Shown here piece after piece: positions 3,388 to 59,050 of a DNA stretch of 64,000 bases. The DNA comes from Eledone cirrhosa (taxonomy: Eukaryota). Each line of letters opens with the position of its first letter. Position 1 is the first letter of the stretch. Location of the stretch: NCBI GenBank assembly GCA_964016885.1, contig OZ024743.1:164672001-164736000 (forward strand), written 5' to 3'. The translations under genes and the position numbers were made by a program. A model generated the notes under the pieces. It was given only the letters and a program-made list of their open reading frames with translations, ran no database searches and had not been told where the DNA came from.

Positions 3388-5460
3388 GCTGGATGCTTTC
3401 CATTGTGCTACGTTCTAAATCAAACTTGCCCTAGTAGACCCATAAGAGGTAGACCCCCCCCCCACCACCACCACCATAACCTCAATGGCAAAAAAGACTC
3501 CCATGGGAAGGTGGATTGGGTGGACCAAAGCTATACGGACCCCCCAAAACAATAATCAGGTAAGAAAAATGGTCGCGCATGCAATAGGGGCTAGTATCAA
3601 AACTATCCTCAAGGGCCACATATTTAAGTTCAACGAGAAGATCTACACCCAAAATGAAAGAGCAGCCATTGGCGTCAGCATAGCTGGTGATGTTGCCAAC
3701 CTTTTCATGGTATGGTGGGAAAGCAGACTTAAAGATATCCTTAATGAGAGCTCCATAGACCTCATCATGTACTCTCGTTATGAAGACGATATCAATATAG
3801 TTATAAGAACATCCCCACTAGAGAGCACTAACAAGTTTGATTTAGAACGTAGCACAATCGAAAGCATCCAGCAGATAGCTAATTCCATACACCAGAGTAT
3901 AACTGTAACTATCGACTTCCCTTCCAAACACCCTAACAATAGACTACCTGTATTAGACACAGAACTCTGGATTAACACTATAGACGAGAGAGCCTAAATT
4001 CTCCACTCACACTATGCTAAACCCATGGCCTCCAAATACCTGATACTCAAAAACTCAGCAATGTCCAGTAGTGCTAAGTTTAATATTCTGATCGTAGATT
4101 TGGTACGAGTGATGAAGAATGTGTCCCGCACGTGCGACCCAACAGAAATGGAAAGACACATCCAACACTTCATCAACCGCATGCAGTTCTCTGGCTACAA
4201 CCAAAGAGACAGAGTCAGAGTATACGAAGGAGCCATGGAGAAGTATAAGACCCTCATAGAACTGGACATGAAAGGAATTTGCCCATTATACAGGAGAAAA
4301 TCATGGAATAGCTTAGATAGGGCTAAACATAAGATAGGGAAAGCCACCTCATGGTACGACAACCAGAGATACCAAAGTGTCATGTTTGTGGACGCTACCC
4401 CTGGAGGGAAATTAGCTAACCAGTGTAGAAAGGCCCTGAGAAAGACCCACTTAAAGATTAAGGTGGTAGAAAAGCCAGGAACCACCATAAAATCCCTGAT
4501 CAGCAAAGCCTACCCTTTTAAGAAAACCCACTGTACTAATAGGAAATGTATCATATGTAAGGTAAACCCCCGGATAAACTGTAAAACTAGAAACGTAGTC
4601 TATAGCATAAAATGTACAGAGGGTACTTGCAGAAACATGACAACAACATACATAGGCGAGACAGCTCGTAGCATAGGTGAAAGGATAGACCAACACTGGG
4701 GGGAACTAAAAGGACGAAAAAACGGGTCAGTACTATACGAACATGCCAGACAACAACACGACGGTAACATAGACAACATAGAAATTAGAATAATATCTAA
4801 ACATAGAAATGACCCAGCAGATAGGCAAATCAGAGAGGCCAGTGAAATAGAACTTAGAAGGCCAAGACTGAACAGAAAGAATGAATGGAATAACAACAAC
4901 ACCCAAACAAACAACACTGACCTAAGGGAAGTATAAATAAGTAAATAAAATAAATAAATAAATAAATACATACACAAGCACAATAACAACAAACACATAA
5001 ACACACATTAGTCACCCAATCACGAACACACCAAACAAAACACTATACACACACGCAAACGCATGCGCAAAGAAGACAAAATAAAATAAACAAACAAGCA
5101 AATAAATAAATAAAAATATAGACAGACTGAATAAAAATAGCGTAGCCATACAATTCAACAGGAGGAAACAATAGCACCACTGACGATGTTGTAGATGTGC
5201 AACGAAAGATTTATGATAAACTATATATATGTGTTGTGTCTATATTGTATCTGTATTATTTTTTACCGTCGGTCAGTCAATGGCAACATTGATGACCGAG
5301 TATATTAGATTACCGATATAAAAGACACAGAAGCGAAAACCAACCAAACAGTAAGTGTGTTCTGTTATTAATTCTGGCAATATTACACAAATATGACCCT
5401 CCCCAAGTATAACAATATTTGTTTCGACACACGATTTCATATAAAAAACCTCGCAAAACT
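3388..5460 (+). mobile_element. 5'-truncated PLE, family P1 (RT C-half, GIY-YIG, 3' UTR)
   Basis: ORFs 3485-3997 and 4025-4936 match 44654-47014 (YVDD mutated to YEDD, one stop). 3388-3428 is an inverted piece of 3831-3871. Confidence 0.92.
5176..5215 (+). ncRNA. Minimal hammerhead-like motif of P1 3' UTR (also 42702-42740+, 47283-47321+, 41000-41036-, 59252-59290-)
   Basis: CUGACGA-U-GUUG(C/U)A-GAUG-UGCAAC-GAAA; stems I and III are weak. Confidence 0.5.
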
Positions 5461-5477
5461 ATATATATATTATATAT

Positions 5478-5754: not shown

Positions 5755-5975
5755 TATATCGTATACCTTCCTGCCAGATGATTGAACGTCTGAAAGTATA
5801 TACTCTCCTTATGCATATTAACGGCTGAGCAGTATGTATATATATATACATACGACTATATATACATACTACTGTACGTCTGTATACATATATGTATACG
5901 TACATACATACTTACATTTAAGTATCAGCCGTACTAAGAGTGAGAAATGAAATTTCGTTTCATTCTTTTCCATTT
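5755..5975 (-). repeat. Internally deleted copy of non-coding unit family A
   Basis: 5830-5975 is the reverse complement of the unit start at 28734 and 13620; 5758-5832 matches the unit interior in forward orientation. Confidence 0.75.
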
Positions 5976-6608
5976 ATATATATATATATACAAACATAAA
6001 TTATCGAGAATCGCATTTCGGCCCACGAAATAACGAAAATCAACCTCCGAGATGTGTGGCAAGTGCTCAATGATTCAGATGAACCAGAGCTATAACAAAC
6101 GTTAAAGGCCAAACACACTGAAACGATGGTTAAACAGTCATTCGCATAACCCCAAAAAACGATCAAGTAATTCGGGTATTGAAAATTTACCCGGACCCCT
6201 GGAAGGTTGGTAAAATCCAGTATTTGGGTTTCTGCGGCTCCTAAATCAAGTACTGTCCGCCTACATAAATAATGTTAAGCTTCTGGTAAGATGATTGAAC
6301 AAGGAAGCCACTTTTTCAACAGGTTTTAGTTCAATGTTAATACAAGGACCGACTATTGCTGCCCCCACGTGGGGATCGGCAAGGGAGGCAACCTATATAT
6401 CAGGCGAATGAATTCAGTTGTGTATATTTTTGCAAGAATGCAAAAACATCACAAATCGAATAGAGTTCTCAACAGAAGGGTTAAAAATAACAAACTATTC
6501 ATATATATATGATATATATATATATATATGATATATAAATATATATATATATATATACATATGGTATATTTATATATGATATATATATATTATATATATA
6601 TATATATA

Positions 6609-11559: not shown

Positions 11560-11604
<45 letters not shown>
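11241..11604. repeat. (TA)n microsatellite, representative of dozens of TA/TG/GA tracts (e.g. 2720-2915, 16280-16468, 32612-32798, 38060-38470, 40280-40727, 43980-44246, 49990-50460, 57100-57655)
   Basis: Directly visible. Confidence 0.98.
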
Positions 11605-11607
<3 letters not shown>

Positions 11608-11617
11608 AACCAGTAAG

Positions 11618-11711
11618 ACCCCGACAGCTGAGCTCAAGCCGTTTCGACGGCTAATTCTGGACTAAATGAAAATTTATCCTGGTATTTAAATAGCCGATCT
11701 TCTCAAGGGGT
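11618..11711 (-). ncRNA. Hammerhead ribozyme, U3-A8 variant (inverted copy)
   Basis: Reverse complement of 13401-13494. Confidence 0.75.
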
Positions 11712-13400
11712 AATTCCATATATGGTCAAAGTGATTGTCAAAAATCAGTAGTAATTCTGTGGTTGCAAATTAGTAGGGGAGATGGTGGCTAAACCTGCCA
11801 GTAGGAGAAAGAGGGGAGGGGGTGGAGTAGACCCAATCCAGCGTTGGTAGTGCCAGCTACAGCTGGGCATGAGGTCAAAGAAGATACAGGGGAGGGGGAG
11901 GGGGAGGAAGTCGGAACGGTAGGTAGAACAATGGGGGGTAGAAATAGGAAAGAAAAAAAAAAAATACTGAGAGTGAAGAAAAGCAAATAAGTGTAAAGAA
12001 AAAGTAAAGTAAAATAAATTCTACGACCTAGGTGTCAGGCTATTGTTAGGCGAGAATAAAAAAGAAAGAAAGAAGTAAATAAATAAATAAATAAATAAAT
12101 AAGGAAATAAGTAAGAGAACTAGGTGGGACGGATAAGGCAAGGACCCTTTTAAGAGGTATAAGTACGTAAATGATACGGTGACGGGTCAACAAAAGAGGC
12201 CAAAATACTAAAGAGACTACCACGAAATAAACAATAAAAGTTTCCATCCCGGGCCAGCAACGACCCAGTGCAGCAAAGTGAACTTGTACGAGATAATAAT
12301 TCTGAGTCCCGAGAAAAATATATACTAATGCTAACTCTAAAAGATCTAAAACAAGCTACATGGAAGTTCGTACGAAATAAAGGTAGAATACGGAGAAATA
12401 AATTCAGAATCCACCCCGCCCAGAGGAAAAGCGAAGCAAGAAATACTGAAACGAAAAAATAAGGCATAAGTGCCACTAAGAAATATAGAGGGCACAGAGA
12501 ATAGTGGGAGCGGTCGGAAAAAGGGGGAAAGTATCCGGGGTCTAAGCCAACTGCTATAAAGGGCGGAGTCCGCCAAATCTATCAAAGACTAGGGGAGGGG
12601 GGGGGGGTACTAAGGCTACATGGGGCCAAAGGGCAGCCTCGGGTGGGCGAGAAAAGACGCCGACAAAGGAGAAGAGCTGGGGTAGAAGGACAAAGGAGAG
12701 AGGGGGGAAGGAAATAAAGGAAGCGATAAAAGAATACAAAGAAGATCTAACGTCTTCCTTGGCAAGCAGGGGTTACCCATTGCAAAATCGGCAACTGGGG
12801 TGTTATAGCCCTAGTCTACCCCCCCGGGTCATTATGGGGTTTGAGGGCGAGGTAAGTCCTACGCAATCTATGTTTACATGCAGTAACCAGTTCATCTTTC
12901 TTGACACTACATCTTTTGTTGACCCGTCACCGTATCATTTACGTACTTATACCTCTTAAAAGGGTCCTTGCCTTATTCGTCCCACCTAGTTCTCTTACTT
13001 ATTTCCTTATTTATTTATTTATTTATTTATTTACTTCTTTCTTTCTTTTTTATTCTCGCCTAACAATAGCCTGACACCTAGGTCGTAGAATTTATTTTAC
13101 TTTACTTTTTCTTTACACTTATTTGCTTTTCTTCACTCTCAGTATTTTTTTTTTTCTTTCCTATTTCTACCCCCCATTGTTCTACCTACCGTTCCGACTT
13201 CCCCCCCTCCCCCTCCCCCTCCCCTGTATCTTCTTTGACCTCATGCCCAGCTGTAGCTCGCACTACCAACGCTGGATTGGGTCTACTCCACCCCTCCCCT
13301 CTTTCTCCTACTGGCAGGTTTAGCCACCATCTCCCCTACTAATTTGCAACCACAGAATTACTACTGATTTTTGACAATCACTTTGACCATATATGGAATT

Positions 13401-13494: not shown

Positions 13495-13585
13495 CTTACT
13501 GGTTCCTATTACCCACTCTACTACCTCAAGTATTGAGTACTTTGGTGCGTTATGGTCCACCTGGTTCCTTACCACATTTCCTTCG

Positions 13586-13619
<34 letters not shown>

Positions 13620-13623
<4 letters not shown>

Positions 13624-14912
13624 GGAAAAAATTAAACGAAATTTCATTTCCCACACTTAGTACGGCTGTTACTTAAATATAAGTATGTACAGGTACATAC
13701 ATATATGTATACAGACGTACAGTAGTATGTATATATATATACATACATGCACACATATATATATGTACGTATTGATTCACCGAACATTTATTATAATGCT
13801 CGGTGTGTTTGTAAACAAACATCCCGTATTAAACCGTAGTGTCTAGCAACCATCGTTGCTCGTTTGTTCAACACTGACAAAGGAACGCTGTACTAGTTTC
13901 AAGCTTATTAGCTATCGTCAGCAACGTATACCTTCCTGCCAGATTGTTGAACGTACATACTTACCTTATGCATATTAACGCTGAGTAGCCCAATTTGCAT
14001 ATCGAGTGGGTTAATCGGCCGGGTGCACCGAAAACGATAAACGGAAAAAATGAAACGAAATTTCATTTCCTACTCTTAGTACGGCTGTTACTTAAATATA
14101 AGTATGTACACGTACATACATATATGTATACAGACGTACAGTAGTATGTATATATATATACATATATGCACACATATATATATGTACGTATGGATTCACC
14201 GAACATTTATTATAATGCTCGGTGCGTTTGTAAACAAACATCTTGTATTAAGCCGTAGTGTCTAGCAACCACCGTTGTTCGTTTGTTCAACACTGACAAA
14301 GGAACGCTGTACTAGTTTCAAGCTTATTAGCTATCGTCAGCAACGTATACTTTCCTGCCAGATTGTTGAACGTATATACTTACCTTATGCATATTAACGG
14401 CTGAGTAGCCCAATTAGCATATCGAGTGGGTTGATCGGCCGGGTGCACCGAAAACGATAAACGGAAAAAATGAATTTCGTTTCATTATCGTTTTAGGTAC
14501 ACCCGGCCGATTAACTCACTCGATATGCAAATTGGGCTACTCAGCCGTTAATATGCATAAGGAAAGTATATACTTTCGGACGTTCAACCATCTGGCAGAA
14601 AGGTATACGTTGCTGACGATAGCTAACAAGCTTGAAACTAGTACAGCGTTCCTTTGTCAGTGTTGAACAAACGAGCAACGGTGGTTGCTAGACACTACGG
14701 CTTAATACGGGATGTTTGTTTACAAACACACCGAGCATTATAATAAATGTTTGGTGAATCCATACGTACATATATATGTGTGCATGTATGTATATATACA
14801 TACATACTACTGTACGTCTGTATACATATATGTATGTACGTATACATACTTATATTTAAGTAAGAGCCGTACTAAGAGTGGGAAATGAAATTTCTTTTCA
14901 TTTTTTCCGTTT
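13620..14912. repeat. Family A non-coding unit array: two ~420-bp tandem copies plus one inverted copy
   Basis: Unit starts near 13620, 14039 and 14459; 14475-14912 is a reverse-complement unit; TA tracts on both sides. Confidence 0.9.
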
Positions 14913-14983
14913 ATATATGATAGATATATATATATACATATATATATATATATGATATGTAAATATATATGATATATATATAT

Positions 14984-16086
14984 CCAAAATTAAATCAAGG
15001 GTTGTCATGTCTGAGAGACATGCGCTATATCTACTGTAGAATAAGCTCAAAGATTCCAATGAATAGATCCGAGCGTTTCATATCAACTAGAAATAGATTT
15101 ACATATATATATATAAAATAAATACATGGAACAATCACAGGGAATAATTTGTAAAGAATGTAAGCACACATAGCTAGGTAGGTAACTAATTAAAGTTTAA
15201 CTAGAACTTCAAATATAGATACGTTTTAAAATGATTAATCTCCTTTGTATATATTTCTTTAAGTAAGAAATATATTTCACCAATTAATCAGTAGATCACA
15301 GCAGTCAAATCCTGGATGGCCACAAAAGGAGAAGAAATAACTATCTGCGTTTACAAAGCAAATACAAATCTGTGAATGACTCGAACCACGTGTTGCATTT
15401 TTCAAAAAATACTCACAACGCACAGCGTCATCCCAGTGGCGTGAATAGGATTATCGCCAGCTAGAAATAGCAGCCGAGTCCATTTAACTGAATTAGCTCA
15501 ACAATCAATGGGCCGTATATATAACCAAAATTAAATTAAGGGTTGTCATGATAACCGTATATATATATCCAAAGGGGCAGTATATATATCCCAAATTAAA
15601 TTAAGGGTTGTCATGACAACCCTTAATTTAATTTTGGATATATATACGGCCCCTTGAATGTTGAGCTAATTCAGTTGAATGGACTCAGCTGCTATTTCTA
15701 GCTGTCGGTAATCCTATTCACGCCACTGGGATGACGCTGTGCGATGTGTGTATTTTTTGAAAAATGCAACACGAGGTTCGAGTCATTCACAGATTTGTAT
15801 TTGCTTTGTAAACGCAGATAGTTATTTCTTCTCCTTTTGTGACCATCCAGGATTTGACTGCTGTGATCTACTGATTAATTGGTGAAATATATTTCTTACT
15901 TAAAGAAATATATACAAAGGAGATTAATCATTTTAAAAGGTATCTATATTTGAAGTTCTAGTTAAACTTTAATTACCTACCTACCTAGCTATGTGTGCTT
16001 ACATTCTTTACAAATTATTCCCTGAGATTGTTTCATGTGTTTATTTTATATATATATATATGTGTCAATCTACTTCTAGTTGATAT
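14984..16086. repeat. Family C non-coding unit (~541 bp) with short tandem restarts and fold-back inversion
   Basis: CCAAAATTAAAT.AAGGGTTGTCATG at 14984, 15525 and about 15590; perfect palindrome centred on TCATGA 15611-15616; a further inverted fragment at 16575-17135. Confidence 0.85.
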
Positions 16087-26184: not shown

Positions 26185-28425
26185 AACACAGAACCCTACA
26201 ACTATTTCAGTACACTGGGTAGTGACCACCGGCTTGTTATCAGTGAGGTCCGGGTGAGCTTAAGAAAGAGCAAGGCTCAGCCCCGGAGAGCAATCTATGA
26301 CTGGGGAGCTTCCAAGGAAGATGATAAGCTACAGGAGAGATTCACAGTAGAAATGAGGAACAGGTTCAGTGCACTGTGTGGAGAAACAGAGGAGAGAGAG
26401 ATTGGATAGACTGAGGAGAGTGTGACGAGGAGGTACGGATACTTCACCAATGCAGTGGCGGAAGCAAGTGAGACCCTGGTACCGAGGAGAAAGAACAAAA
26501 GGAAGCACGTCAGCTCTGCAGACCCAAAAGTATGTGCAGCCAGAGAACACCTGAAAGCTGCCAAGGACCAATTCTATGCTGATCCTACGGAGGAGAAGAT
26601 GGAGACTGTGGAGGTGACGAGGGAAGAACTCTGTACCGCTTACACTGAGGCCAGAGAGGGGGCACTGATAGAGAAGATCAGACGTGTGGAGAGAGCGGTT
26701 GACAGGTCTGGATGTAAGGAGAGCTGGAAGATCATCAACGAGATCATAGGGAGGAAGAGAAGGTGTTCGAGTCAGATCCAGGGAACGGGGCCCGAGGATA
26801 GGAAGAGGAAATGGATAGACCATTTTAGGACCCTACTAGGAGAGCCGCCCTCCACAGCCCAGAACACTGGGGAGATCAGGCGACTGTTTGAAGAACTGGA
26901 TATTGAGACAGAGCCCTTCACCAGAGAGGAGCTTCAGAGAGCCAAGAAGAAGATCAAGGAGGCAAGGCTCATGGAGAAGATGGAGTGGCATCAGAGGTGA
27001 TGAAGAGGTGTGATTTTGATGATATCAAGCTGGGGTTCTTTAACCAGGCACTGGAGAAAGGAGTTGCCCGAATCAGTGGAGGATCAGTAACATCGTCCCA
27101 GTGCCAAAGAAGGGAGATCTCTCTAACACCAACAACTACAGGGGGATCTCACTGACGTCACTTGTGGCAAAGACACTCAACAGGATGATTCTTAACAGGA
27201 TCCAGCCTAAGATGGAGAAGAAGCTCAGGGACAACCAGAACGGCTTCAGAGAAGGAAGATCAACCACCAGTCACATCCTGATGCTGAGGAGGATATTAGA
27301 GGGAGCTAGAGCAAAGTACCTTCCTGCAGTCTTGGTTTTCATTGACTTTAGGAAGGCCTTTGATTCCGTGGACCGTCACTGCCTGATGAAGATCTTACAG
27401 GCTTATGGAATCCCCAAGAAGATAGTGGACCTGATATCACTGCTCTACACCAACACCAAAGCCCGAGTCATTACACCTGATGCGATGACAGAGTTCTTTG
27501 AGATACTGGCTGGAGTGCTCCAGGGAGATACATTGGCTCCCTACCTTTTTATCATCGTGGTGGACTATTGCATGTGCCTTGCACTAGAGAAACACCAGGA
27601 CTCTGGCTTTACTGTAGCACCGGCTCAGAGCAGGAGAGTTAAGGCGAAAAGATATCGGATGCTGAATTTGCCGACGACATAGTTTTGGTGACAAATACAG
27701 TGAAGGAAGCAGAGGATTTGATGCAGGAGATTGAGACTGTGTTGATGAGTGTGGGGCTGAGAATGAATGAGATTAAGACAAAATATCTGGTAGAGAATGT
27801 TGAGAAGCCAGAAGAGATTATTAATGTAGGCGGGGAGCCGCTAGAATTGGTTGAGGACTTCCTGTATTTGGGACCAAAGATTGGGAATACGGAAGATGAT
27901 GTGGTTGAGAGGAAGAGCAAGGCCTGGGCGGCGTGCCACAGCTTGAGATCGGTGTGGAAGTCGGACCTTTGTAAAGACCGGAAAATCCGCCTCTTCATTG
28001 CTGTAGTGGAGTCTGTGCTGCTGTACGGGTCTGAGACTTGGACAGTGGCCAAGAAACTCACTCAGATGGTGGATGGGTGCTACACAAGAATGCTAAGGAT
28101 GGCTCTGAACATTAATCAGTATACACTGAGGATGAAAAACTCAGAGCTTTATGGGAGCCTCCTAAAAGTCAGCTCAAAAGTGACACAGAGGAGACTGAGG
28201 TTAGCTGGACATGCTCACCGGCATTCAGAGTTGACATTGCACTCAGTGCTCCTGTGTGAGCCCCTACATGGACACACTGGAAGAGAAAGACCAAGGTTAA
28301 CGTATGTTTATGCCCTAAGGACAGACACTGGTCTGTTGGAGACGCAGGAAATGGCAGCGATAATGAGAGACAGAGACCGCTGGAGAGAACTCGTCCATGG
28401 ATCTCGGAAATTTTACCCGCCCTAA
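26185..28425 (+). mobile_element. 5'-truncated RTE-clade LINE (RT), frameshifted
   Basis: [79 protein letters not shown]; ends in a TA tract. Confidence 0.92.
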
Positions 28426-28426
28426 A

Positions 28427-29840
<1,414 letters not shown>

Positions 29841-29907
29841 ATATATATATATATATATATTAATGAAAAAGAACAAAGGAACTATTATGACATTATAACA
29901 AGTTTAT

Positions 29908-36075: not shown

Positions 36076-36122
<47 letters not shown>

Positions 36123-36125
<3 letters not shown>

Positions 36126-37040
36126 AAATATATTACTAATAAATAATGGAATAGAAAGGGCTAAAGCAATAGGCATTGATGAATTACGGAAACAGAAACA
36201 AATTCAAGGTACGTCCAATATTCTATCATATATCTCAACACACAACCCAAGAAATGCGGAAGCTTACAACACTATTCACAATAACATCCCACTACTAAAA
36301 CAAAACCCAAGAATGAAAAAAGCCCTTGAAACACACAAAATAATCAAAAGCAAAAGTCAACCAAAATCACTGAAAACATTACCCACCAATGCCAAATTAC
36401 CTACCACAAACCCACAACCAAGTATCAAAAAATGTGGTCGCTCTAATTGTGGAACCTGCACTCACCTCATTGAAGGCAACACGTATACATTTAAATCAGG
36501 ACAAAATTTTACTGTAAAAAATCACTTCACTTGCTCATCAAAAAATCTAATTTATGCTATTAAATGTAAAGGATGCAATGAAGATTATATAGGACAAACT
36601 AAACTCACACTCAGAAACAGAATGACAGTTCACCGCCAACAATTACGAGATCCAACCACGAGACAGATACCACTAAGTGCACATCTAGACATTTGCGCAA
36701 GTAATAAGACACCCAAATTCCAAGTCTTCCCATTTTACCTTTGCGCTAACAATACAACAGAACAAATGCGAATAAATAAGGAAAATATGTTTATTCAAAA
36801 ATATAGACCAACATTAAATAAGGTTTAATATACATTATGTCAACACCACAATATGACATACACACACACACACACATAACACCTTCTACTTTAGAAAATA
36901 AAAACCCGAACTAAATAAACCTTAACATACGTTTGCACTGGCAATACAACAGCAAATACGAAAAAGTCAGGAAAATATGTTCATTCAAAAATATTCCTAC
37001 TAAAGGAATCATTTTCCTACACACACACATACACACACAC

Positions 37041-38469: not shown

Positions 38470-40280
38470 ATCAACGGCCACCCTCTCTCGGTCCGGCATG
38501 CCTTCCGCTGCACCTCCTCCAACCTAGTCTACGGACTTCGTTGCACGAGGTGCAGCGCGACTTATGTCGGACAGACGGGACGCCGCCTGGCGGACCGAGT
38601 CACGGAGCACCTCCGGGACATTCGTCTCGGGGGCAGTTCCCCCATCGCCCGCCACTTTGGTGGCCCTGGACACTCCGCACGCCATCTCACAGTCTGTGGC
38701 CTACTCCAGTGCCACGGTACACCCGCCCATCGCCTTACGGTCGAACAACGTACTATCTTCATCTTACAGACCCACACTCCCCCGGCCTGAACTCCCCACC
38801 CTTATTCCTTTAGCGTTCTACCGCCCCCCTCCCCCACTTATCCCCCACTAACACCACTAACACACCCCTCCTTTTCACCGCCCACCCCACACTAACAATA
38901 CTAACACCTCCACTCCACTCCACCCCTCATCTGACCACCCTTCCCCAACTAACATACTAAAAATCCCTTCCCTCCCCTCATCTCCTCCTCCCCCTCCTTA
39001 TCACACGCACACACTTACACCACCCACCCCACACGCAACTAACATCACTAACACCCTCCAACCCCACGCACACGTACCCACACACCCTCGTACACCACCA
39101 ACTCTACACACCCTACCCCCACTAACCCCCACTCACACCTGCATTCCACCCCTCCCCACCTCCCGTCTACTAACACCCACTAACACCTCCTCACTAAACT
39201 ACACACACACCAGTACACCACACTCCCTCCATAGAACCCACACCCCCTTCTCTCCCCACTCCACACTCACTCATCCCACTAACACCCCTACTAATACACA
39301 CACACACACACACACCCTCCTCACTCTAACTCTCACACCTACCCATCCTCGCCTCCCTACCATTCCGCTGACTGCTGCTATGCCCTTCCGACCACTGTCT
39401 CAGCACCAACTGACCACAGCACTTCCACTGCTGACCACTTCCTGTTGCGCGCGCACCCCACATCTCTCCTCTTCCGACCACCGCTTCTTGGATTACCCAC
39501 ACGCGTTTTAACTTCCAACCAAAATCTCCATACATCCGTGTAACTTACCACTTTCAACCATCGTCTTACACCATCACCTATATAACTCACCCACACACAC
39601 ATCCCAAAACAATTTTTTTTATCCACACGCCACCCACACTCACAACACGCTTAAACCACACACACGTGCTTCCCACCACATATTTACACCCTCAGCCCCC
39701 TGATTCCTCTCCCCCCACCCCCTATCCACACACGCACAGACCCTCCGACACACAAAAACACCCCCCACACACACCTTCCTGAACATGCAACCCCGTTCTT
39801 CCTCCAACCCTCACTTTCACATACACACACACACACACCTAACCACACACACGCACACCTAACCACACACACCACCTTCAGCCCTCCCCGCTCGGACACC
39901 CCGTCTCCCCCTCCCCACTCCACCCGCCACAACCTCTACTCACCCCACACCCTTCCACCACCTGTTTACCCCCCTTTTAATTTCAGTTTATTTTGATCAT
40001 GCCTTTATTTTTAAATGTTCTCATTCCTTGTATTTTGATCATGCTTTATTTTTATTTATTATTTATTATATTTTTGTCTTTATTTGTTAATTTTTCATTC
40101 GCACCGTTTCCTTTCGCTATATGTCTCTCCACCACTCCCCTACACACCTTTTGAACTCTCACCTGAAGAAGGGCTTATGCCCGAAACGTCGTCCCCCACC
40201 TACCCCCCACTCTCCTGAGCGTGAATTTAATAAACATTTGTCGTACTGCCTCTCTGTTCTGTCCCTGTTCAATTTTTCAT
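38470..40280 (+). mobile_element. 5'-truncated Neptune-like PLE (GIY-YIG plus C/A-rich 3' UTR)
   Basis: FRCTSSNLVYGLRCTRCSATYVGQTGRRLADR..EH..PIARHF..EQ..IF.LQT; homologous to 47658-49985(-). Confidence 0.9.
40161..40192 (+). ncRNA. Minimal PLE-type hammerhead
   Basis: CUGAAGA-A-GGGC-UUAU-GCCC-GAAACGUC; short stem I. Confidence 0.75.
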
Positions 40281-40348
40281 TATATATATATATATATATA
40301 TATGTGTATGTATATGTATGTATATGTGTATATGGGTATATGTGTATA

Positions 40349-40391
<43 letters not shown>

Positions 40392-40478
40392 ATATATATA
40401 TATGTATATGTGTGTGTATGTATGTATATAAGTATATATATATGTATATATATATATATATATGTATATAAGTATATA

Positions 40479-40727: not shown

Positions 40728-42947
40728 GCGGCGATGAATTAGTTTAGCGAGGTTTTTTATATGAAATCGTGTGTCGAAACAAATATTGTTATACTTGGGG
40801 AGGGTCAAATTTGTGTAATATTGCCAGAATTAATAACAGAACACACTCACTGTTTGGTTGGTTTTCGCTTCTCGCTGTCTTTTATATCTGCGATCTAACT
40901 TACTCGGTCCCAAATGTTGCCATTGACTGACCGACGGTCAAAAATAATACAGATACAATATAGACACAAACACATATATATAGTTTACATAATTTACATA
41001 AATCTTTCGTTGCACATCTGCAACATCGTCAGTGGGGTTATATTTTTCCCTCCTGTTGTGTTGTATGTCTACGCCATTTTTTATTCAGTCTGTCTATATA
41101 TTTATTTATTTATTTGCTTGTTTGTTTATTTTATTTTGTCTTCTTTACGCATGCGTTTGCGTGTGTGTATAGTGTTATGTTTGCTGTGTGACTAGTGTGT
41201 ATAGTGTTGTGTCTGCTGGGTGACTAGTGTGTGTTTATGTGCTTGTTGTTATTGTGCTCATGTATGTATTTATTTAACTTATTTTATTTTATTTAATTTA
41301 CTTATTTATACTTCTCTTAGGTCAGTGTTGTTTGTTTGGGTGTTGTTGTTGTTCCACTCATTCTTTCTGTTTAGCTTTGGTCTTCTAATTTCTATTGGAC
41401 ACATTCTTCATCACTCGTACCAACCACCCTAACAATAGACTACCTGTATTAGACACAGAACTCTGGTTTAACACTATAGACGAGAGAGCCCAAATTCTCC
41501 ACTCACACTATGCTAAACCCATGGCCTCCAAATACCTGATACTCAAAAACTCAGCAATGTCCAGTAGTGCTAAGTTTAATATTCTGATCGCAGATTTGGT
41601 ACGAGTGATGAAGAATGTGTCCAGCATGTGCGACCCAACAGAAATGGAAAGACACATCCAACACTTCATCAACCGCATGCAGTTCTCTGGCTACAACCAA
41701 AGAGACAGAGTCAGAGTATATGAAGGAGCCATGGAAAAGTATAAGACCCTCATAGAACTGGACATGAAAGGAATTTGCCCATTATACAGGAGCAAATCAT
41801 GGAATAGCTTAGATAGAGCTAGACATAAGATAGGGAAGGCCACATCATGGTACGACAACCAGAGATATCAGAGTGTCATGTTTGTGGACGCCACCCCTGG
41901 AGGGAAATTAGCCAACCAGTGTAGAAAGGCCCTGAGAAAGACCCACTTAAAAATAAAGGTGGTAGAAAAGCCAGGAACCACGATAAAATCCCTGATCAGT
42001 AAAACCTACCCTTTTAAGAAAACCCACTGTACCAATAGGAAATGTATCATATGTAAGGTGAACCCCCGGATAAACTGTAAAACTAGAAACGTAGTCTATA
42101 GCATAAGATGTACAGAGGGTACTTGCAGGAACATGACAACAACATACATAGGTGAGACAGCTCGTAGCATAGGTGAAAGGATAGACCAACACTGGGGGGA
42201 ACTAAAAGGACGAAAAAACGGGTCAGTACTATACGAACATGCTAGACAACAACATGACGGTAACATAGACAACATAGAAATTAGAATAATATCTAAACAT
42301 AGGAATGACCCAGCAGATAGGCAAATCAGAGAGGCCAGTGAAATAGAAATTAGAAGACCAAAGCTAAACAGAAAGAATGAGTGGAACAACAACAACACCC
42401 AAACAAACAACACTGACCTAAGAGAAGTATAAATAAGTAAATAAAATTAAATAAAATAAGATAAATAAATACATACACAAGCACAATAACAACAAGCACA
42501 TAAACACACACTAGTCACCCAGCAGACACAACACTATACACACTAGTCACACAGCAAACATAACACTATACACACACGCAAACGCATGCGCAAAGAAGAC
42601 AAAATAAAATAAACAAACAAGCAAATAAATAAATAAATATATAGACAGACTGAATAAAAAATGGCGTAGACATACAACACAACAGGAGGAAAAAATATAA
42701 CACCACTGACGATGTTGCAGATGTGCAACGAAAGATTTATGTAAATTATGTAAACTATATATATGTGTTTGTGTCTATATTGTATCTGTATTATTTTTGA
42801 CCGTCAGTCAGTCAATGGCAACATTGAGGACCGAGTAAGTTAGATCGCAGATATAAAAGACAGCGAGAAGCGAAAACCAACCAAACAGTGAGTGTGTTCT
42901 GTTATTAATTCTGGCAATATTACACAAATATGACCCTCCCCAAGTAT

Positions 42948-42952
<5 letters not shown>
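40728..42952 (+). mobile_element. PLE family P1: inverted 3' end plus 5'-truncated forward copy
   Basis: 40728-41395 is the reverse complement of the element 3' end; 41396-41421 is the reverse complement of 41597-41622; forward ORF 41425-42432. Confidence 0.93.
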
Positions 42953-42983
<31 letters not shown>

Positions 42984-42988
<5 letters not shown>

Positions 42989-43976
42989 CAAATAACGAAA
43001 CGAAATTAAATTTCGTTTCGTTTGTAACTCACTTTTGTATGACTGACGCTTAAACAATTAAGTTAGAAGTGTACATCCACATATGTATACTGAAATACTA
43101 GTATGCATATAAATACACACACGTATACATATGTAGATGTACCGAGTTTTTAACTGGACACTTTACTGTGAGTGTTCAGCTAGTCTGTATGTAAACACAC
43201 AGACAAACCGGTTTTTAGAGTCATACTGGTTTTCGAGGAAACACCTTTCCTCTATTCTCCAGAGGGCCAGACAGGAATATTGGACTAGTTTCGATGTTGT
43301 TACATCTCATCAGCAATATTTACCCATCCTCCGGCCCCTCTAGAGAATCGTAAAAGCACATATCGTTATATGCTTTTTCTATGAAAATTAGTAGTGGGCA
43401 GACTAATTTGCATAGAGCGTGAGTACGTACCGGTTCAGCGGAAGCGATAAAAACAAATAACGAAACGAAATTAAATTTCGTTTCGTTTGTAACTCACTTT
43501 TGTATGACTGACGCTTAAACAATTAAGTTAGAAGTGTACATCCACATATGTATACTGAAATACTAGTATGCATATAAATACACACACGTATACATATGTA
43601 GATGTACCGAGTTTTTAACTGGACACTTTACTGTGAGTGTTCAGCTAGTCTGTATGTAAACACACAGACAAACCGGTTTGTGCTTTTACGATTCTCTAGA
43701 GGGGCCGGAGGATGGGTAAATATTGCTGATGAGATGTAACAACATCGAAACTAGTCCAATACTCCTGTCTGGCCCTCTGGAGAATAGAGGAAAGGTGTTT
43801 CCTCGAAAACCAGTATGACTCTAAAAACCGGTTTGTCTGTGTGTTTACATACAGACTAGCTGAACACTCACAGTAAAGTGTCCAGTTAAAAACTCGGTAC
43901 ATCTACATATGTATACGTGTGTGTATTTATATGCATACTAGTATTTCAGTATACATATGTGGATGTACACTTCTAA

Positions 43977-43980
<4 letters not shown>
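42984..43980. repeat. Family B non-coding unit (~465 bp), 1.5 tandem copies plus inversion
   Basis: AAAACAAATAACGAAACGAAATT at about 42985 and 43450; 43678-43980 is inverted; TA flanks. Confidence 0.9.
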
Positions 43981-44246: not shown

Positions 44247-47200
44247 GCGGCGATGAATTAGTTTTGCGAGGTTTTTTATATGAAATCGTGTGTCGAAACA
44301 GACACAGCAACAGTGACCACAGTAGTAATAACGGTAACAATACGAACAACAACAACAACAATAACCACAGTGGTAATAATGGAAATAGTACATGTAGCAA
44401 CATCAACAAAAACAAGAAACATAATAATAGTAACAACCACAATGGTAGAAATAGCAGTAACAACAACAACAATAACGGTGAAGTAAACAACAATACATCT
44501 AGCAATCATAACAATAATAATATTAATGCTAATGATAGAAACAACAACAACCACCATGATAACAATAATAGCAACACACACAACTATGACGATAGAAATA
44601 ACGACAACCCCTTAGAGAAACTATTTTTCAACCCAGCTGACAAAACATATAAGATGGGTAATATCTATCCTACGAGGTTACCCTTTAATAAAAGAGTTTG
44701 CATACCACAACAAATAGATGACGAGACGGAGGCACAGTTCACCATAGCTAGAAATAAGATTAGACAAGTAGTAGACAGGTACACTATGAGACAGAGCAGA
44801 CCAGAGGCCCAACAACTTGGGATAAAACCTGTAGAAGGCTTGGTTAGCCTCAAGCAGCGCACAAGGGATGGTGAGGTAGTGTGTCTACCCACAGATAAGT
44901 CTGGTAGGATGTCAATAGATAGCATGCCGAACTACATCGAGGCAATGCAACCCCACATCACCAACACGAGCGAAGTTGCACAACTAACACACGATGGGAG
45001 AGAAAAAATCCTCAACGCTCACATGATGATGTGGACTGACATCCTAAAGCCAAGCAGACGCACTGCCAACAACTTCCAGGCGTCTAACAATGGCATACCA
45101 CCCTTGTATGGGCTCCGCAAAGACCACAAGACAGTCGACGACCCGACAACAGGACCACCAACAAGACCTGTATGCGGAGCTAATATAGCTAGCAACTACA
45201 GGATCTCCTACTTCCTCTCAATGGTTATACGCCCCATAATCAAGATGTCCCCAGATGTATGTGAAAGTACAGAGGACCTCCTCAGCAGAATCAGTGAGTG
45301 CAACAAAAACAGGAGCCTATCCAACTGCATAATAGGCAGCATGGATGTGGTGTCACTGTACCCATCCATTAACATTGATTTTGCTGTGAAAAGATGTGTG
45401 GAGATGATCATTGAGAGTGAGGTGGAGTTCTGCGACGTCGACACAGACGAACTGGGCCTCCTACTTAGACTTACCTACGACACTGACTACCTAGACAGCC
45501 ATGACCTTAGATGTTTCTGCCCTAGTAGACCTATAAGAGGTAGACCCCCCACCATAACCTCAATGGCTAAAAAGACTCCCATAGGAAGGTGGATTGGGTG
45601 GACCAAAGCTATACGGACCCCCCAAAACACTGATCAGGTAAGAAAAATGGTCGCACATGCAATAGGGGCTAGTATCAAAACTACCCTAAAGGGCCACATA
45701 TTTAAGTTCAATGAGAAAATCTACACCCAAAATGAGGGAGCAGCCATCGGCGTCAGCATAGCTGGTGATGTTGCCAACCTTTTCATGGTATGGTGGGAAA
45801 GGAGACTTAAAGATCTCCTTAATGAAAGCTCCATAGACCTCATCATGTACTCTCGTTATGTAGACGATATCAATATAGTTATAAGAACACCCCCACTAGA
45901 GAGCACTAACAAGTTTGATTTAGAACGTAGCACGATGGAAAGCATCCAGCAGATAGCTAATTCCATACACCAGAGTATAACTGTAACTATAGACTTCCCT
46001 TCCAAACACCCTAACAATAGACTACCTGTATTAGACACAGAACTCTGGATTAACACTATAGACGAGAGAGCCCAAATTCTCCACTCACACTATGCTAAAC
46101 CCATGGCCTCCAAATACCTGATACTCAAAAACTCAGCAATGTCCAGTAGTGCTAAGTTTAATATTCTGATCGCAGATTTGGTACGAGTGATGAAGAATGT
46201 GTCCAGCATGTGCGACCCAACAGAAATGGAAGGACACATCCAACACTTCATCAACCGCATGCAGTTCTCTGGCTACAACCAAAGAGACAGAGTCAGAGTA
46301 TACGAAGGAGCCATGGAAAAGTATAAGACCCTCATAGAACTGGACATGAAAGGAATTTGCCCACTATACAGGAGCAAATCATGGAATAGCTTAGATAGGG
46401 CTAGACATAAGATAGGGAAGGCGACATCATGGTACGACAACCAGAGATATCAGAGTGTCATGTTTGTGGACGCCACCCCTGGAGGGAAATTAGCTAACCA
46501 GTGTAGAAAGGCCCTGAGAAAGACCCACTTAAAAATAAAGGTGGTAGAAAAGCCAGGAACCACCATAAAATCCCTGATCAGCAAAACCTACCCTTTTAAG
46601 AAAACCCACTGTACCAATAGGAAATGTATCATATGTAAGGTGAACCCCCGGATAAACTGTAAAACTAGAAACGTAGTCTATAGCATAAGATGTACAGAGG
46701 GTACTTGCAGAAACACGACAACAACATACATAGGTGAGACAGCTCGTAGCATAGGTGAAAGGATAGACCAACACTGGGGGGAACTAAAAGGACGAAAAAA
46801 CGGGTCAGTACTATACGAACATGCTAGACAACATCATGACGGTAACATAGACAACATAGAAATTAGAATAATATCTAAACATAGGAATGACCCAGCAGAT
46901 AGGCAAATCAGAGAGGCCAGTGAAATAGAAATTAGAAGACCAAAGCTAAACAGAAAGAATGAGTGGAACAACAACAACACCCAAACAAACAACACTGACC
47001 TAAGAGAAGTATAAATAAATAAGTAAATTAAATTAAATAAAATAAGATAAATAAATACATACACAAGCACATAAACACACACTAGTCACCCAGCAGACAC
47101 AACACTATACACACTAGTCACACATCACACATAACACTATACACACACGCAAACGCATGCGCAAAGAAGACAAAATAAAATAAGATAAACAAACAAGCAA

Positions 47201-47520
47201 ATAAATAAATAAATATATAGACAGACTGAACAAAAAAAATGGCGTAGACATACAACACAACAGGAGGAACAATGAATATAACACCACTGACGATGTTGCA
47301 GATGTGCAACGAAAGATTTATGTAAACTATATATATATGTGTTTGTCTATATTGTATCTGTATTATTTTTGACCGCCGGTCAGTCAATGGCAACATTGAG
47401 GACCGAGTAAGTTAGATCGCAGATATATATATATAAAAGACAGCGAGAAGCGAAAACCAACCAAACAGTGAGTGTGTTCTGTTATTAATTCTGGCAATAT
47501 TACGCAAATATGACCCTCCC

Positions 47521-47523
<3 letters not shown>
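44247..47523 (+). mobile_element. PLE family P1, longest copy
   Basis: Short inverted 3'-end piece at 44247-44300, Asn-rich coding linker, RT-EN ORF, ~500-bp 3' UTR, TA flanks. Confidence 0.93.
44654..47014 (+). CDS. Penelope-like reverse transcriptase plus C-terminal GIY-YIG endonuclease (uninterrupted; true start probably upstream or truncated)
   Basis: [84 protein letters not shown]; 786 aa from Met 44654. Confidence 0.9.
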
Positions 47524-54839: not shown

Positions 54840-56094
54840 TATAACACACACACATTTTACTTTACTTGATTTTTGATTTTTGATTTCTCATTATTCATTT
54901 GTTATTTGTTTTCTGTTTTCTTCACTTTATCACCTTATATTTATATTTAAGTTGAGATTGGTTATAACACACACACATTTTATTTGATTATCCTATTTCG
55001 CTTTATTCTTTTACCATCTTGTTCCTCGTACCACTTTATCCAACATATTTCTGACCTTGAGATTGGTTATAGCACACACACATTTTATCTTATTTTATTT
55101 GAATCTTCATTTTTATTTTTCACTTTTCATTTTTCATTACTTTTTCATTAATTTTTCATTTATTCTCTATTTATTATTTATTTTCTGTTTTCTTCATTTT
55201 ATTGCCTTCTATTTCTTCATATACATGGCAGAACCCCCCCCCCCCCCCCCCCTGCCCCCACCACCACGGGAGATGGTGGCAGGAGGGATGAAGAAACACA
55301 CACACAGATACTTCTAAATTGTCAGCAGCAGCAAGACATAAGCTGACCACATCACCTACAACACTACCAAAATAAGGGTAGAAGTCAGATGTACTTAACA
55401 ATAGCAAACACAAACACTACAGGGAGCCTCACCCCAGAAAGAATTTCTATACACTTTGGACTGAGGAATGCTCTCAAAACTGACCAATAGGAAGTGACCT
55501 TACAAATCTTTATAACATTGAGATGGGTATAACACACACACACATTTTATTCAATTATTTTATTTTATTTTGTTCCTTTACCATCTTATTCCTTCTACCA
55601 CTTTATCATTTTTTTTAGCTGACTCCAACAACAACACCACTACCAACATAAGAATAGAGGTCAGATGTACCTAACAATAACACAAACAACAACTACAGAT
55701 TGGCTTGCCTCAGAACGAATTTCTATAGACTTTTGACTGAGGAATGTTCTAGCAACTGACCAATGAGAGGAGAAGAGACCCTTTGACGCTGAAATTCGTT
55801 TGTTTAAATTCATATGATTCCAGTTCCTCAGTGAAATAACAAGCCAACCAGGAACTGGGCATATCAGAGTATTGACAAAGTTATACACCTCAACAACATG
55901 TGTACTCGTCTCAACCACACTAATTCGGACTGCCTGAAGAGGTCACAGCCAAAGATGGCTGTCACCGAAAAATATATATAGCAGTAATAAACGAAGCCAA
56001 ATTTTAAACATTTGACTTATTTATTTTATTTTATTTTATTTTATGTATATATATATGTATATGTATATATATATATGTGTATATATATATATAT

Positions 56095-56125
<31 letters not shown>

Positions 56126-56665
56126 GTATATATAAATGTATATATATACATATATATATGTATATATATATAAAATAAAGTTAAATAAAAAGTCAAATGA
56201 TTAAAATTTAGCTTCGTTTATTACTGCTATATATATTTCAGTGACAGCCATCTTTGCCTGTGACCTCTTCAGGCAGTTTGAATTAGTATGGTATAGACAA
56301 GTACATATGTTGTTGAGGTGTATAATATTGTCAATACTCTGATATGCCCAGTTCCTGTTCCTCAGTGAAATAACAACCCAACCAGGAATTGGGCATATCA
56401 GAGTATTGACAATATTATACACCTCAACAACATATGTACTTGTCTATACCATACTAATTCAAACTGCCTGAAGAGGTCACAGCCAAAGATGGCTGTCACT
56501 GAAATATATATAGTAGTAATAAACGAAGCTAAATTTTAATCATTTGACTTTTTATTTAACTTTATTTTACACTACTCCGGAGTAACCAAACCAACCTGCG
56601 CACTTCGTCGAGTGCTCCAGTCTGCATACTGAGGTGTTGGTATACAACCAACATAAACTCAAAAT
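54840..56665 (+). mobile_element. PLE-type non-coding 3' region with internal repeats and three HHR copies (55929-55985+, 56223-56277-, 56463-56517+)
   Basis: ACUGC/GCAGU stem I, CUGAAGA, GGU.ACAGCCA/UGGCUGU.ACC stem II, GAAA, AU-rich palindromic stem III; repeated TTGAGATTGGTTATAACACACAC upstream. Confidence 0.75.

Positions 56666-59048: not shown

Positions 59049-59050
<2 letters not shown>

What the first reader, a model, noticed from the sequence alone, without database searches (positions are those of the whole stretch)
13620..14912. Second hammerhead-less group (families A/B, 420-465 bp) with conserved motif order and an octamer ATTTGCAT
Seen: A arrays (13620, 28734, remnant 5755) and the divergent B array (42984) share AAACGAAA..TTTC.TTTC, a CTTA(A)/(T)TAAG hairpin with different loops, CATAT(AT)GTATAC, TGTAAACA.AC, AGGAA..ACTAGTTTC, AATTTGCATA (13992, 29128, 43405; one A copy mutated) and CCGG..CGATAAA at the unit end. 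Every full array is tandem copies followed by an inversion inside TA tracts. Established: ATTTGCAT is the POU/Oct site of snRNA distal elements, and Naiad-type PLEs lack hammerheads and favour microsatellites. Inference: non-coding parasites of PLEs that may carry their own promoter driving the next tandem unit.
Basis: partly seen in the sequence, partly recalled or inferred. Interest (0 to 1): 0.72.

Follow-up and report, generated by a model that had tools for sequence, protein, structure and literature searches.

The report
Hammerhead retrozymes, not hammerhead-less repeats

Summary
The arrays, their shared motif order and the octamer are real. A and B are homologous outside the TA-rich core (z 12.7 and 15.2, 0 of 300 shuffles). 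Both are young and high-copy (1815 and 1121 first-look candidates).

"Hammerhead-less" is wrong. The minus strand of every full unit carries a type-I hammerhead core. Rfam HH9 matches B (E 7.7e-6, below the gathering score). A keeps the core with a U.U pair at 10.1/11.1, and its helices covary with B's.

Of 30 multi-arm arrays, 29 are two inward-facing arms, and arms start at two fixed unit positions next to (TA)n. A coding Penelope-like element in this window inserts the same way, with a 54-nt tail at one end only. It shares no sequence with A or B.

The octamer is part of TATGCAAATT(A/G)G. That word lies at -77 to -79 in five host promoters (U6 x3, MRP, U6atac) and is followed by a TATA-like box. 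The word-to-box spacing is about 5 nt shorter in the repeats.

Verdict: new members of a known kind, metazoan non-LTR retrozymes. This scan had already noted such families on other DNA of this genome. No RNA data were available.

The parts
13587..13620 (.). (TA)17 flank on the left of the A1 array
   Evidence: TRF; sequence
13618..14036 (-). A1 unit 1 (419 bp). The RNA sense is the minus strand. The left arm starts at unit position 1 (long end).
14037..14456 (-). A1 unit 2 (95.7% to unit 1). Its octamer word is changed to TATGCTAATTGG.
14489..14914 (+). A1 right arm: one inverted unit whose outer end is also at unit position 1
14912..14983 (.). (TA)n flank on the right of the A1 array
13891..13921 (-). 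Hammerhead core of A1 unit 1: CUGACGA, helix II, GAAAC, UAGUA. Predicted cleavage lies between 13891 and 13890. Helix I extends the motif to about 13872-13932.
   Evidence: No Rfam match at E<=10.
14310..14340 (-). Hammerhead core of A1 unit 2
14613..14643 (+). Hammerhead core of the A1 inverted arm
13990..14001 (-). Further copies lie at 14410-14421 (-) and 14524-14535 (+).
14372..14380 (-). TATA-like AGTATATAC, 41-42 nt downstream of the word in RNA sense. A further copy lies at 14565-14573 (+). Unit 1 reads GTATGTAC at the same place.
28732..29847 (-). A2 array (about 84% to A1): two units, a part unit, and an inverted piece covering unit positions 57-195. Hammerhead cores lie at 29018-29048 (reads GGAAC in place of GAAAC) and 29462-29492. 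The promoter-like word lies at 29126-29137 and 29570-29581.
5760..5977 (.). Small A2-like remnant with two arms (+ positions 308-371; - positions 120-1) between TA tracts
42982..43980 (-). B array: unit 42982-43447, part unit to 43679, and an inverted arm 43679-43980 whose outer end is at unit position 78 (short end)
43261..43331 (-). B hammerhead, with canonical CUGAUGA, G10.1-C11.1, GAAAC and C17. A second copy lies at 43708-43778 (+) in the inverted arm.
   Evidence: Rfam HH9: 31.8 bits, E 7.7e-6, and 28.4 bits, E 9.9e-5
43403..43414 (-). B copy of the word TATGCAAATTAG. The TATA-like AGCATATAA lies at 43366-43374 (-).
40729..42983 (.). Two-armed insertion of a coding-type Penelope-like element in (TA)n. 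The left arm is a 54-nt tail plus the inverted 3' end (to 41396). The right arm is 41420-42983 and ends without the tail.
44247..47523 (+). Penelope-like element copy with an open 921-codon frame (44249-47011; reverse transcriptase plus C-terminal GIY-YIG). An inverted 54-nt tail lies at its left end and a short end at its right, with (TA)n on both sides.

Best explanation

Inferred steps:
1. Each unit would be transcribed from a built-in copy of the host's U6/MRP-type upstream word plus a TATA-like box, which lie just ahead of the ribozyme.
2. A transcript spanning several units would cut itself, probably as a dimer through the palindromic ACUAGU helix III. The unit-length RNA would then be closed into a circle.
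3. A Penelope-type endonuclease would break a (TA)n tract, and both DNA ends would prime reverse transcription on the RNA at two fixed U/A-rich sites. The 'long' start is unit position 1. The 'short' start is position 57-61 in A and 69-78 in B.
4. The two cDNAs would run inward over one to four units and be joined at an arbitrary point.

Shown here: the motifs, their strand, the array anatomy, the copy numbers, and the same anatomy in a coding Penelope-like element of this window.

Inferred: transcription, cleavage, circles, and which enzyme does the copying.
For: Hammerhead motif:
- Rfam HH9 matches B on the minus strand at 43261-43331 (E 7.7e-6) and on the plus strand of the inverted arm (E 9.9e-5).
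- The core string is found in all 7 full or near-full units of the window.
- On 6 sequences of A1, A2 and B, 88% of cells pair in the hammerhead fold, against 30-46% with slid partners. Six pairs change on both sides, and 0 of 500 shuffles reach the covariation score.

Strand. Three independent signs agree on the minus strand: the ribozyme, the orientation of the promoter-like word and TATA-like box, and the outward-facing 3' ends.

Anatomy:
- 48 complete arrays were found in 60 loci. 29 are '+ then -', 1 is '+-+', 0 are '- then +', and 18 have a single arm.
- In A, 28 of 41 arm starts lie at positions 1-10 and 10 of 41 at 57-61. In B, 20 of 36 lie at position 1 and 15 of 36 at 69-78.
- 14 of 15 two-armed B arrays have one long and one short start. 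About 47% would be expected if the two starts were independent (my arithmetic).
- None of the 77 arm starts lies at the predicted cleavage site, position 273/274. The 58 inner arm ends of the 29 two-armed arrays are scattered, with one at 275. Templates were therefore circles or uncut multimers.
- TA repeat adjoins 60 of 77 arm starts.

Penelope-like element in the window. It has an open 921-codon frame. Its C-terminus aligns to a Pfam-confirmed GIY-YIG (E 3e-5). A distant relative has the RVT_1 plus GIY-YIG architecture. Its copies sit in (TA)n as inverted plus direct arms, with a 54-nt tail at only one end. Craig et al. 2021 (PMC8557442, passages read) describe such tandem/inverted insertions, one-sided tails and (TA)n targets. 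They report the (TA)n preference for Naiads.

Promoter:
- TATG[CG][AT]AAT[TG]AG lies at -77 to -79 and TATA[TA]A at -30 in 5 host promoters: two single U6 genes, the U6 cluster, MRP and U6atac.
- The pattern, allowing A or G at position 11, occurs 5 times in 168,373 background bases on both strands.
- A and B carry the word in RNA sense, 80-101 nt before CUGANGA.

Literature. Retrozymes and their proposed mobilisation by PLEs: PMC7229834 (passages) and Li et al. 2026 preprint (abstract and section 14).
Against: - A's hammerhead has U.U at 10.1/11.1 in the family majority, where G-C is highly conserved (PMC4209133 passage). Rfam gives no hammerhead match for A at E<=10.
- B's Rfam match is below the gathering score (31.8 against 52 bits), and the whole window has no match at gathering scores.
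- No sequence likeness links A or B to the window's PLE. Of 12 local-alignment tests, the best is reached by 1 of 100 shuffles. The PLE has no Rfam match at E<=1 and no hammerhead by my descriptor.
- The long/short pairing is not significant in A (7 of 14).
- The word-to-TATA spacing is 41-42 nt in the repeats and 46-48 nt in host genes.
- 7SK and RNase P use another upstream word.
- The octamer word also forms one arm of a predicted RNA hairpin, which could explain its conservation.
- At 63% identity, about 1.5 invariant runs of 10 nt are expected by chance (my estimate).
- T5-T6 runs at the RNA-sense unit end would stop RNA polymerase III before a second ribozyme is reached.
Confidence: 0.8

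Rival explanations
1. One reading: truly hammerhead-less non-coding parasites of Naiad-type Penelope-like elements, in which the conserved blocks serve only for recognition and as a promoter.
For: Rfam finds no ribozyme in A at E<=10 and none in the window at gathering scores. A has U.U at 10.1/11.1, so its ribozyme may be weak or dead. Naiads target (TA)n and lack hammerheads (PMC8557442 passages).
Against: B has a canonical core and an HH9 match at E 7.7e-6. A keeps every core letter at the homologous place, and its helices I and II covary with B's. The PLE copies seen in the window have a C-terminal endonuclease, not the N-terminal one of Naiads.
Confidence: 0.05
2. The conserved octamer block is kept for an RNA hairpin of the circular or rod-like RNA, not as a promoter. 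Transcription would come from elsewhere, by read-through or from another internal signal.
For: In the minimum-energy fold of the A monomer the word pairs with the downstream UUAAUAUGCAUA. By eye, B pairs 13 of 14 positions with ACUAAUUUUCAUAG. The TATA spacing differs from host genes by about 5 nt. Block conservation alone is weak evidence. Earlier notes of this scan disagree with one another on the promoter.
Against: The match to the host word extends beyond the octamer: 12 of 12 letters in A2 and B match one of the two single U6 genes (L062). It has the right orientation, lies just ahead of the ribozyme, and is followed by a TATA-like box that matches the host RGTATATA. The pattern is rare in background DNA, with 5 hits in 168 kb.
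Confidence: 0.35
3. A foldback-type or TA-targeting DNA transposon (MITE) whose long inverted ends are made of tandem units.
For: Arrays look like long inverted repeats flanked by TA.
Against: 18 of 48 complete arrays have one arm only. Arm lengths and inner junctions vary freely. The outer ends fall at two different unit positions, so the two ends of one array are usually not mirror images. A ribozyme and a promoter-like word sit on one strand only.
Confidence: 0.03
4. Satellite DNA that grew locally by slippage or recombination in TA microsatellites, without an RNA step.
For: Tandem units next to simple repeats.
Against: More than a thousand first-look candidates for each family lie on many chromosomes. 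Copies match the majority base at 97.8-98.8% of positions. Arrays are short and have fixed outer ends.
Confidence: 0.02

Closest known systems
Metazoan non-LTR retrozymes (Cervera and de la Pena 2020, PMC7229834; passages read)
   Same: Short non-coding tandem units of low G+C, one type-I hammerhead per unit, many dispersed copies, no LTRs seen, and coexistence with Penelope-like elements. The monomer RNA is predicted to be highly self-paired (-133.4 kcal/mol, z -6.2).
   Different: The units are 419-465 bp, above the 170-400 nt quoted there. A has U.U at 10.1/11.1. The two-armed arrays with two fixed starts in (TA)n are not described in the passages I read. Expression and circles are not shown here.
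Penelope-like element insertions (Craig et al. 2021, PMC8557442; passages read)
   Same: Partial tandems plus an inverted 5'-truncated copy with 3' ends outward, an extension ('tail') at one end only, and a (TA)n target. The window's own coding PLE shows all three.
   Different: A and B code for nothing. Their tails are 56-78 nt and the window PLE's is 54 nt, against the 30-40 bp quoted there. No sequence is shared with the window's PLE, unlike the Xenopus retrozymes, which resemble pLTRs (Li et al. 2026 preprint, section 14 read).
Newt satellite 2 with an snRNA-type promoter (Coats, Zhang and Epstein 1994). Seen only as cited in PMC2220036; the paper itself is not held.
   Same: A hammerhead-bearing tandem repeat with an internal promoter of the small-nuclear-RNA kind.
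   Different: Here the likeness is to the host's U6/U6atac/MRP upstream word and is purely computational. The PMC2220036 passage ascribes the newt case to RNA polymerase II.
Metazoan type-I hammerheads with a short palindromic helix III (Cervera and de la Pena 2014, PMC4209133; passages read)
   Same: Helix I of 6-7 bp, helix II of 4-5 bp, and helix III of 2 bp with a 2-nt loop inside the palindrome ACUAGU, which points to action as a dimer in tandem transcripts.
   Different: A lacks the G10.1-C11.1 pair that the paper lists as highly conserved.

Membership tests
Hammerhead ribozyme, type I | Conserved core CUGANGA ... GAAA and H17 in the right order | tested here: met
   B reads CUGAUGA..GAAAC..GUC. 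A reads CUGACGA..GAAAC..GUA. The core is present in all 7 full or near-full units of the window, though A2 unit 1 reads GGAAC.
Hammerhead ribozyme, type I | Helices I and II supported by compensatory changes | tested here: met
   88% of cells pair, against 30-46% with slid partners. Six pairs change on both sides, and 0 of 500 shuffles reach the covariation score. Only 6 sequences from 3 families were used.
Hammerhead ribozyme, type I | Match to a curated Rfam model at its gathering score | tested here: not met
   B matches HH9 at 31.8 bits against a gathering score of 52, E 7.7e-6. A has no match at E<=10. The window has none at gathering scores.
Hammerhead ribozyme, type I | G10.1-C11.1 pair | tested here: inconclusive
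   Met in B. In A it is U.U, and this is the family majority among 47 units.
Hammerhead ribozyme, type I | Self-cleavage | not testable with these tools
   Needs in vitro transcription of monomer and dimer constructs.
Metazoan non-LTR retrozymes | Tandem non-coding units, each with a type-I hammerhead, of low G+C and without LTRs | tested here: met
   G+C is about 37%. Arrays abut (TA)n directly.
Metazoan non-LTR retrozymes | Unit length of about 170-400 nt | tested here: not met
   A is 419-447 bp and B is 465 bp, somewhat above the quoted range.
Metazoan non-LTR retrozymes | Expressed as linear and circular unit-length RNAs | not testable with these tools
   No RNA run is listed. The runs laid are contigs of unknown kind.
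Elements inserted by Penelope-like machinery | Tandem plus inverted 5'-truncated arms with 3' ends outward | tested here: met
   29 of 30 multi-arm arrays have one polarity and none the opposite. Inner ends are scattered.
Elements inserted by Penelope-like machinery | Tail at one end only | tested here: inconclusive
   Long plus short pairing is seen in 14 of 15 B arrays but only 7 of 14 A arrays. The A1 array of this finding is long plus long.
Elements inserted by Penelope-like machinery | (TA)n target | tested here: met
   TA repeat adjoins 60 of 77 arm starts.
Elements inserted by Penelope-like machinery | Terminal sequence shared with an autonomous partner | tested here: not met
   No significant likeness to the window's PLE was found. 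Other PLE families of the genome were not searched.
Host U6/MRP-type upstream promoter | Upstream word TATG[CG][AT]AAT[TG]AG in sense orientation | tested here: met
   A2 and B have TATGCAAATTAG. A1 has TATGCAAATTGG.
Host U6/MRP-type upstream promoter | TATA box at the host spacing | tested here: inconclusive
   G(T/C)ATATA lies 41-42 nt after the start of the word, against 46-48 nt in 5 host promoters.
Host U6/MRP-type upstream promoter | Transcription start about 78 nt after the word | not testable with these tools
   No RNA data are available.

The most novel reading that the evidence does not exclude
Cephalopod retrozymes have captured the host's U6/MRP-type upstream promoter word and TATA box, so each unit transcribes into the next. 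Both arms of an insertion are copied from one small RNA circle by a Penelope-type enzyme that starts at two fixed sites. The same long-end/short-end rule produces the unexplained one-sided 'tail' of Penelope-like elements themselves.
Probability: 0.4. Interest if true: 0.7.

Novelty: new member of a known kind. Interest (0 to 1): 0.45.

Why it matters
How animal retrozymes get transcribed, and which enzyme copies them, are open questions. PMC7229834 names PLEs only as candidates, and Craig et al. 2021 call the PLE integration steps undefined.

These families give three concrete handles:
- Two fixed cDNA start sites next to (TA)n.
- A coding PLE in the same window that obeys the same long/short-end rule.
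- A 12-nt word shared with the host's own U6, U6atac and MRP promoters.

Each can be tested with standard RNA mapping and reporter assays. As an element class it is not new, and the reason given for interest, the absence of a hammerhead, does not hold.

Tried and rejected
- Rfam at gathering scores on the whole window gave no match.
- Rfam at E<=10 on 13500-15000 gave only microRNA-like and other chance matches to the TA palindromes, and no ribozyme.
- Local alignment of whole A and B units is dominated by the TA-rich core, so it was replaced by tests outside that core.
- The window's PLE was compared with A and B in both strands and nothing significant was found.
- The PLE was searched for a hammerhead by Rfam at E<=1 and by a simple descriptor of my own, and none was found. 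The descriptor also misses A, because of its U.U pair.
- The sequencing-run search listed no RNA holder.
- I laid contigs of four coded runs of unknown kind. They give no strand, level or ends of an RNA. The best holder may be the sample the genome came from. Its contigs show TA-repeat loose ends just before 14037 (52) and 14096 (30), the same two start points as in the genome. Two other coded organisms each hold at least one contig across a unit junction, with 3 and 9 other letters. I draw no conclusion on species spread.
- Look-ups of earlier notes by sequence and by place found nothing.
- Coats et al. 1994 is not held.
- Paper searches for 'retrozyme' with 'octopus' and 'hammerhead ribozyme' with 'cephalopod' listed no paper on cephalopod retrozymes, judged by titles and abstract starts only.
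- Helitron and Tc1-like readings were considered and dropped. The unit ends do not resemble them by recall, and the array anatomy speaks against them.
- The idea that T-runs mark the 3' end of the copied RNA was dropped, because 28 of 41 A arm starts include the 8 nt beyond the T6 run.

Full report
**What is there.** The window lies in a 3.0-Gb animal genome. The closest named relatives of one of its proteins are from Octopus.

The A1 array of the finding is (TA)17, then two direct units (13618-14036 and 14037-14456, 95.7% alike), an 18-nt start of a third unit followed by a small deletion (14457-14488), one inverted unit (14914-14489, 92.8%), and then (TA)n. The A2 array (28732-29847), a small remnant (5760-5977) and the B array (42982-43980) are built in the same way.

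Outside the TA-rich core, B aligns with A1 and A2 far better than shuffled controls: z 12.7 and 15.2, with 0 of 300 shuffles reaching the score. The reverse complement aligns no better than chance, at z 0.4 and 0.6. A and B are 63% identical over 406 aligned columns. Only four blocks of 7 nt or more are invariant: TATGCAAATT, GAAACTAGT, GTATACATAT and AATTTCGTTTC, written in RNA sense.

Both families are abundant and young. There are 1815 and 1121 first-look candidates, of which 40 each were scored. In the fetched loci, 47 A and 48 B full units match the majority base at 97.8% and 98.8% of positions. That sample is biased towards the best matches.

**The families are not hammerhead-less.** Notes of this scan on other parts of the same genome describe hammerhead repeats of 418-422 and 466-468 bp. 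They prompted me to read the other strand.

On the minus strand B reads: helix I AAUAUUG, CUGAUGA, helix II G-AUGU(AACA)ACAU-C, GAA, AC(UA)GU, C, then CAAUAUU. Rfam's HH9 model matches it at 43261-43331 (31.8 bits, E 7.7e-6) and matches the plus strand of the inverted arm (E 9.9e-5). Both scores are below the gathering score of 52.

A keeps the same core at the homologous place: CUGACGA, U-AGCU(AAUA)AGCU-U, GAAAC, UAGUA. It has U.U where G10.1-C11.1 is usual. Rfam does not report it at E<=10.

I aligned six sequences of A1, A2 and B. In the hammerhead fold 88% of cells pair, against 30-46% when partners are slid. Six pairs change on both sides, and no shuffle of 500 reaches the covariation score.

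Helix III is 2 bp with a 2-nt loop inside the palindrome ACUAGU. This is the short palindromic form that Cervera and de la Pena 2014 (PMC4209133, passages) describe as acting in dimers in tandem transcripts.

**Array anatomy.** The 60 fetched loci hold 54 arrays, of which 48 lie wholly inside a locus. Of these, 29 are a plus arm followed by a minus arm, 1 is plus-minus-plus, none is minus then plus, and 18 have a single arm.

Each arm starts at its outer end at a fixed unit position and runs inward for 0.1 to 3.9 units. The inner ends are scattered. In A, 28 of 41 arm starts are at positions 1-10 and 10 at positions 57-61. In B, 20 of 36 are at position 1 and 15 at positions 69-78. TA repeat adjoins 60 of the 77 starts.

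In B, 14 of 15 two-armed arrays pair one long start with one short start. About 47% would be expected if the two starts were independent, so the two arms look coupled. In A the figure is 7 of 14, which is not significant, and the A1 array of this finding is long plus long.

The new DNA strand primed by the flanking (TA)n reads as the plus unit, so the copied RNA is the minus strand. That is the same strand as the ribozyme.

None of the 77 arm starts is at the predicted cleavage site (unit position 273/274), and arms run through it. The template was therefore a circle or an uncut multimer, not a cleaved linear monomer.

**A coding Penelope-like element in the same window behaves alike.** The stretch 44249-47011 is an open 921-codon frame. 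It has a weak RVT_1 match. By eye it has a Cx4CxxC linker and a GIY-YIG-like C-terminus, and that C-terminus aligns to the Pfam-confirmed GIY-YIG of the ORF at 36076-36825 (E 3e-5). A distant relative has the RVT_1 plus GIY-YIG architecture.

Four copies lie in the window. All four end in or next to (TA)n:
- The insertion at 40729-42983 is an inverted 5'-truncated arm plus a direct arm. A 54-nt extra tail is present at the left outer end only.
- The copy at 44247-47523 has just the inverted tail at its left end and a short right end.
- The copy at 3427-5461 has the long end.
- The copy at 59050-60847 has the short end.

This is the tandem/inverted layout with a one-sided tail and (TA)n preference that Craig et al. 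2021 describe (passages). It parallels the 56-78-nt difference between the long and short starts of A and B.

However, A and B share no detectable sequence with this element. The element shows no hammerhead by Rfam at E<=1 or by my simple descriptor. The partner is therefore not identified.

**The octamer.** In RNA sense the octamer is part of TATGCAAATTGG (A1) or TATGCAAATTAG (A2 and B). I fetched this genome's own small-RNA genes to compare.

TATG[CG][AT]AAT[TG]AG lies at -77 to -79, and TATA[TA]A at -30, in two single U6 genes, the U6 tandem cluster, RNase MRP and U6atac. None of 16 distinct U1 and U2 upstream regions has it. Fifteen of those 16 carry [AG]TCAGT at -57 to -59, as do 7SK at about -62 (by eye) and RNase P at -67.

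The pattern occurs 5 times in 168,373 background bases on both strands.

In A and B a TATA-like G(T/C)ATATA follows the word. In A it matches the host RGTATATA. The box lies 41-42 nt after the start of the word, against 46-48 nt in host genes. The hammerhead core follows 80-101 nt after the start of the word. A start site predicted from the host spacing falls at or just ahead of helix I.

There are three caveats. The spacing differs by about 5 nt. The word is also one arm of a predicted RNA hairpin. And block conservation at 63% identity is weak evidence by itself. On the RNA-sense strand, the first T4+ run after the predicted start lies within 15 nt of the unit end in the A1 units, A2 unit 2 and B. 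A2 unit 1 also has a T5 in mid-unit. If RNA polymerase III is used, these runs must be read through to give unit-length RNA.

The precedent is newt satellite 2 and its snRNA-type promoter. I saw it only as cited in PMC2220036.

**Verdict.** A and B are new families of a known kind, metazoan non-LTR retrozymes (PMC7229834, passages; Li et al. 2026 preprint, abstract and section 14). They insert with Penelope-type footprints.

The label 'hammerhead-less' does not. The idea of a PLE parasite with its own promoter is partly supported.

No RNA evidence was available. Two paper searches listed nothing on cephalopod retrozymes. This scan had already reported such families, their two-armed form and the octamer on other DNA of this genome.

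Noticed in passing
window 3427-5461, 40729-42983, 44247-47523, 59050-60847: Four copies of one Penelope-like element family, 91.5-95.5% alike pairwise. One has an open 921-codon frame. All end in or next to (TA)n. A 54-nt tail is present at only one outer end, so the 'tail' of PLE insertions can be read here as a long versus a short cDNA start.
   Followed up: partly
window 55849-56569: A palindromic pair of another repeat, with a hammerhead-like string (CCTGAAGAG, a 10-bp helix II, CGAAA) at about 55933 and 56467 (+) and 56272 (-), beside a (TA)n tract. My descriptor finds it; Rfam at gathering scores does not.
   Followed up: no
window 11603-12197 and 13509-12912: A 600-bp inverted repeat, 98.5% alike, lies between (TA)175 and the (TA)17 that starts the A1 array. 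Its end ...GGTTCCTTACCACA.TTCCTTCGTTA(TA)n recurs next to TA tracts in loci L002 and L125. It looks like another two-armed, TA-associated element family.
   Followed up: no
window 36076-36825: An ORF with a Pfam GIY-YIG domain (E 9.5e-7) starts right after (TA)24. It is probably a 5'-truncated copy of a second PLE family.
   Followed up: no
window 38472-40409 and 49568-47526: Large C-rich/G-rich inverted repeats, 76-88% alike, bracket the cluster of PLE copies and the B array.
   Followed up: no
window 27044-28422: A reverse-transcriptase ORF (RVT_1, E 3e-24) of a different, LINE-like kind.
   Followed up: no
host loci L061-L129 (G000): Two classes of upstream element occur in this genome's small-RNA genes. 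TATGCAAATKAG at -78 is found in U6, U6atac and MRP. [AG]TCAGT, at about -58 in U1 and U2 and at -62 to -67 in 7SK and RNase P, marks the other class. Most genes of both classes have a TATA-like box near -30.
   Followed up: partly
L042/L046 and L091 (G000 C2, about 180.971-180.974 Mb): A B-family array lies less than 1 kb from the first gene of a U1 tandem cluster.
   Followed up: no
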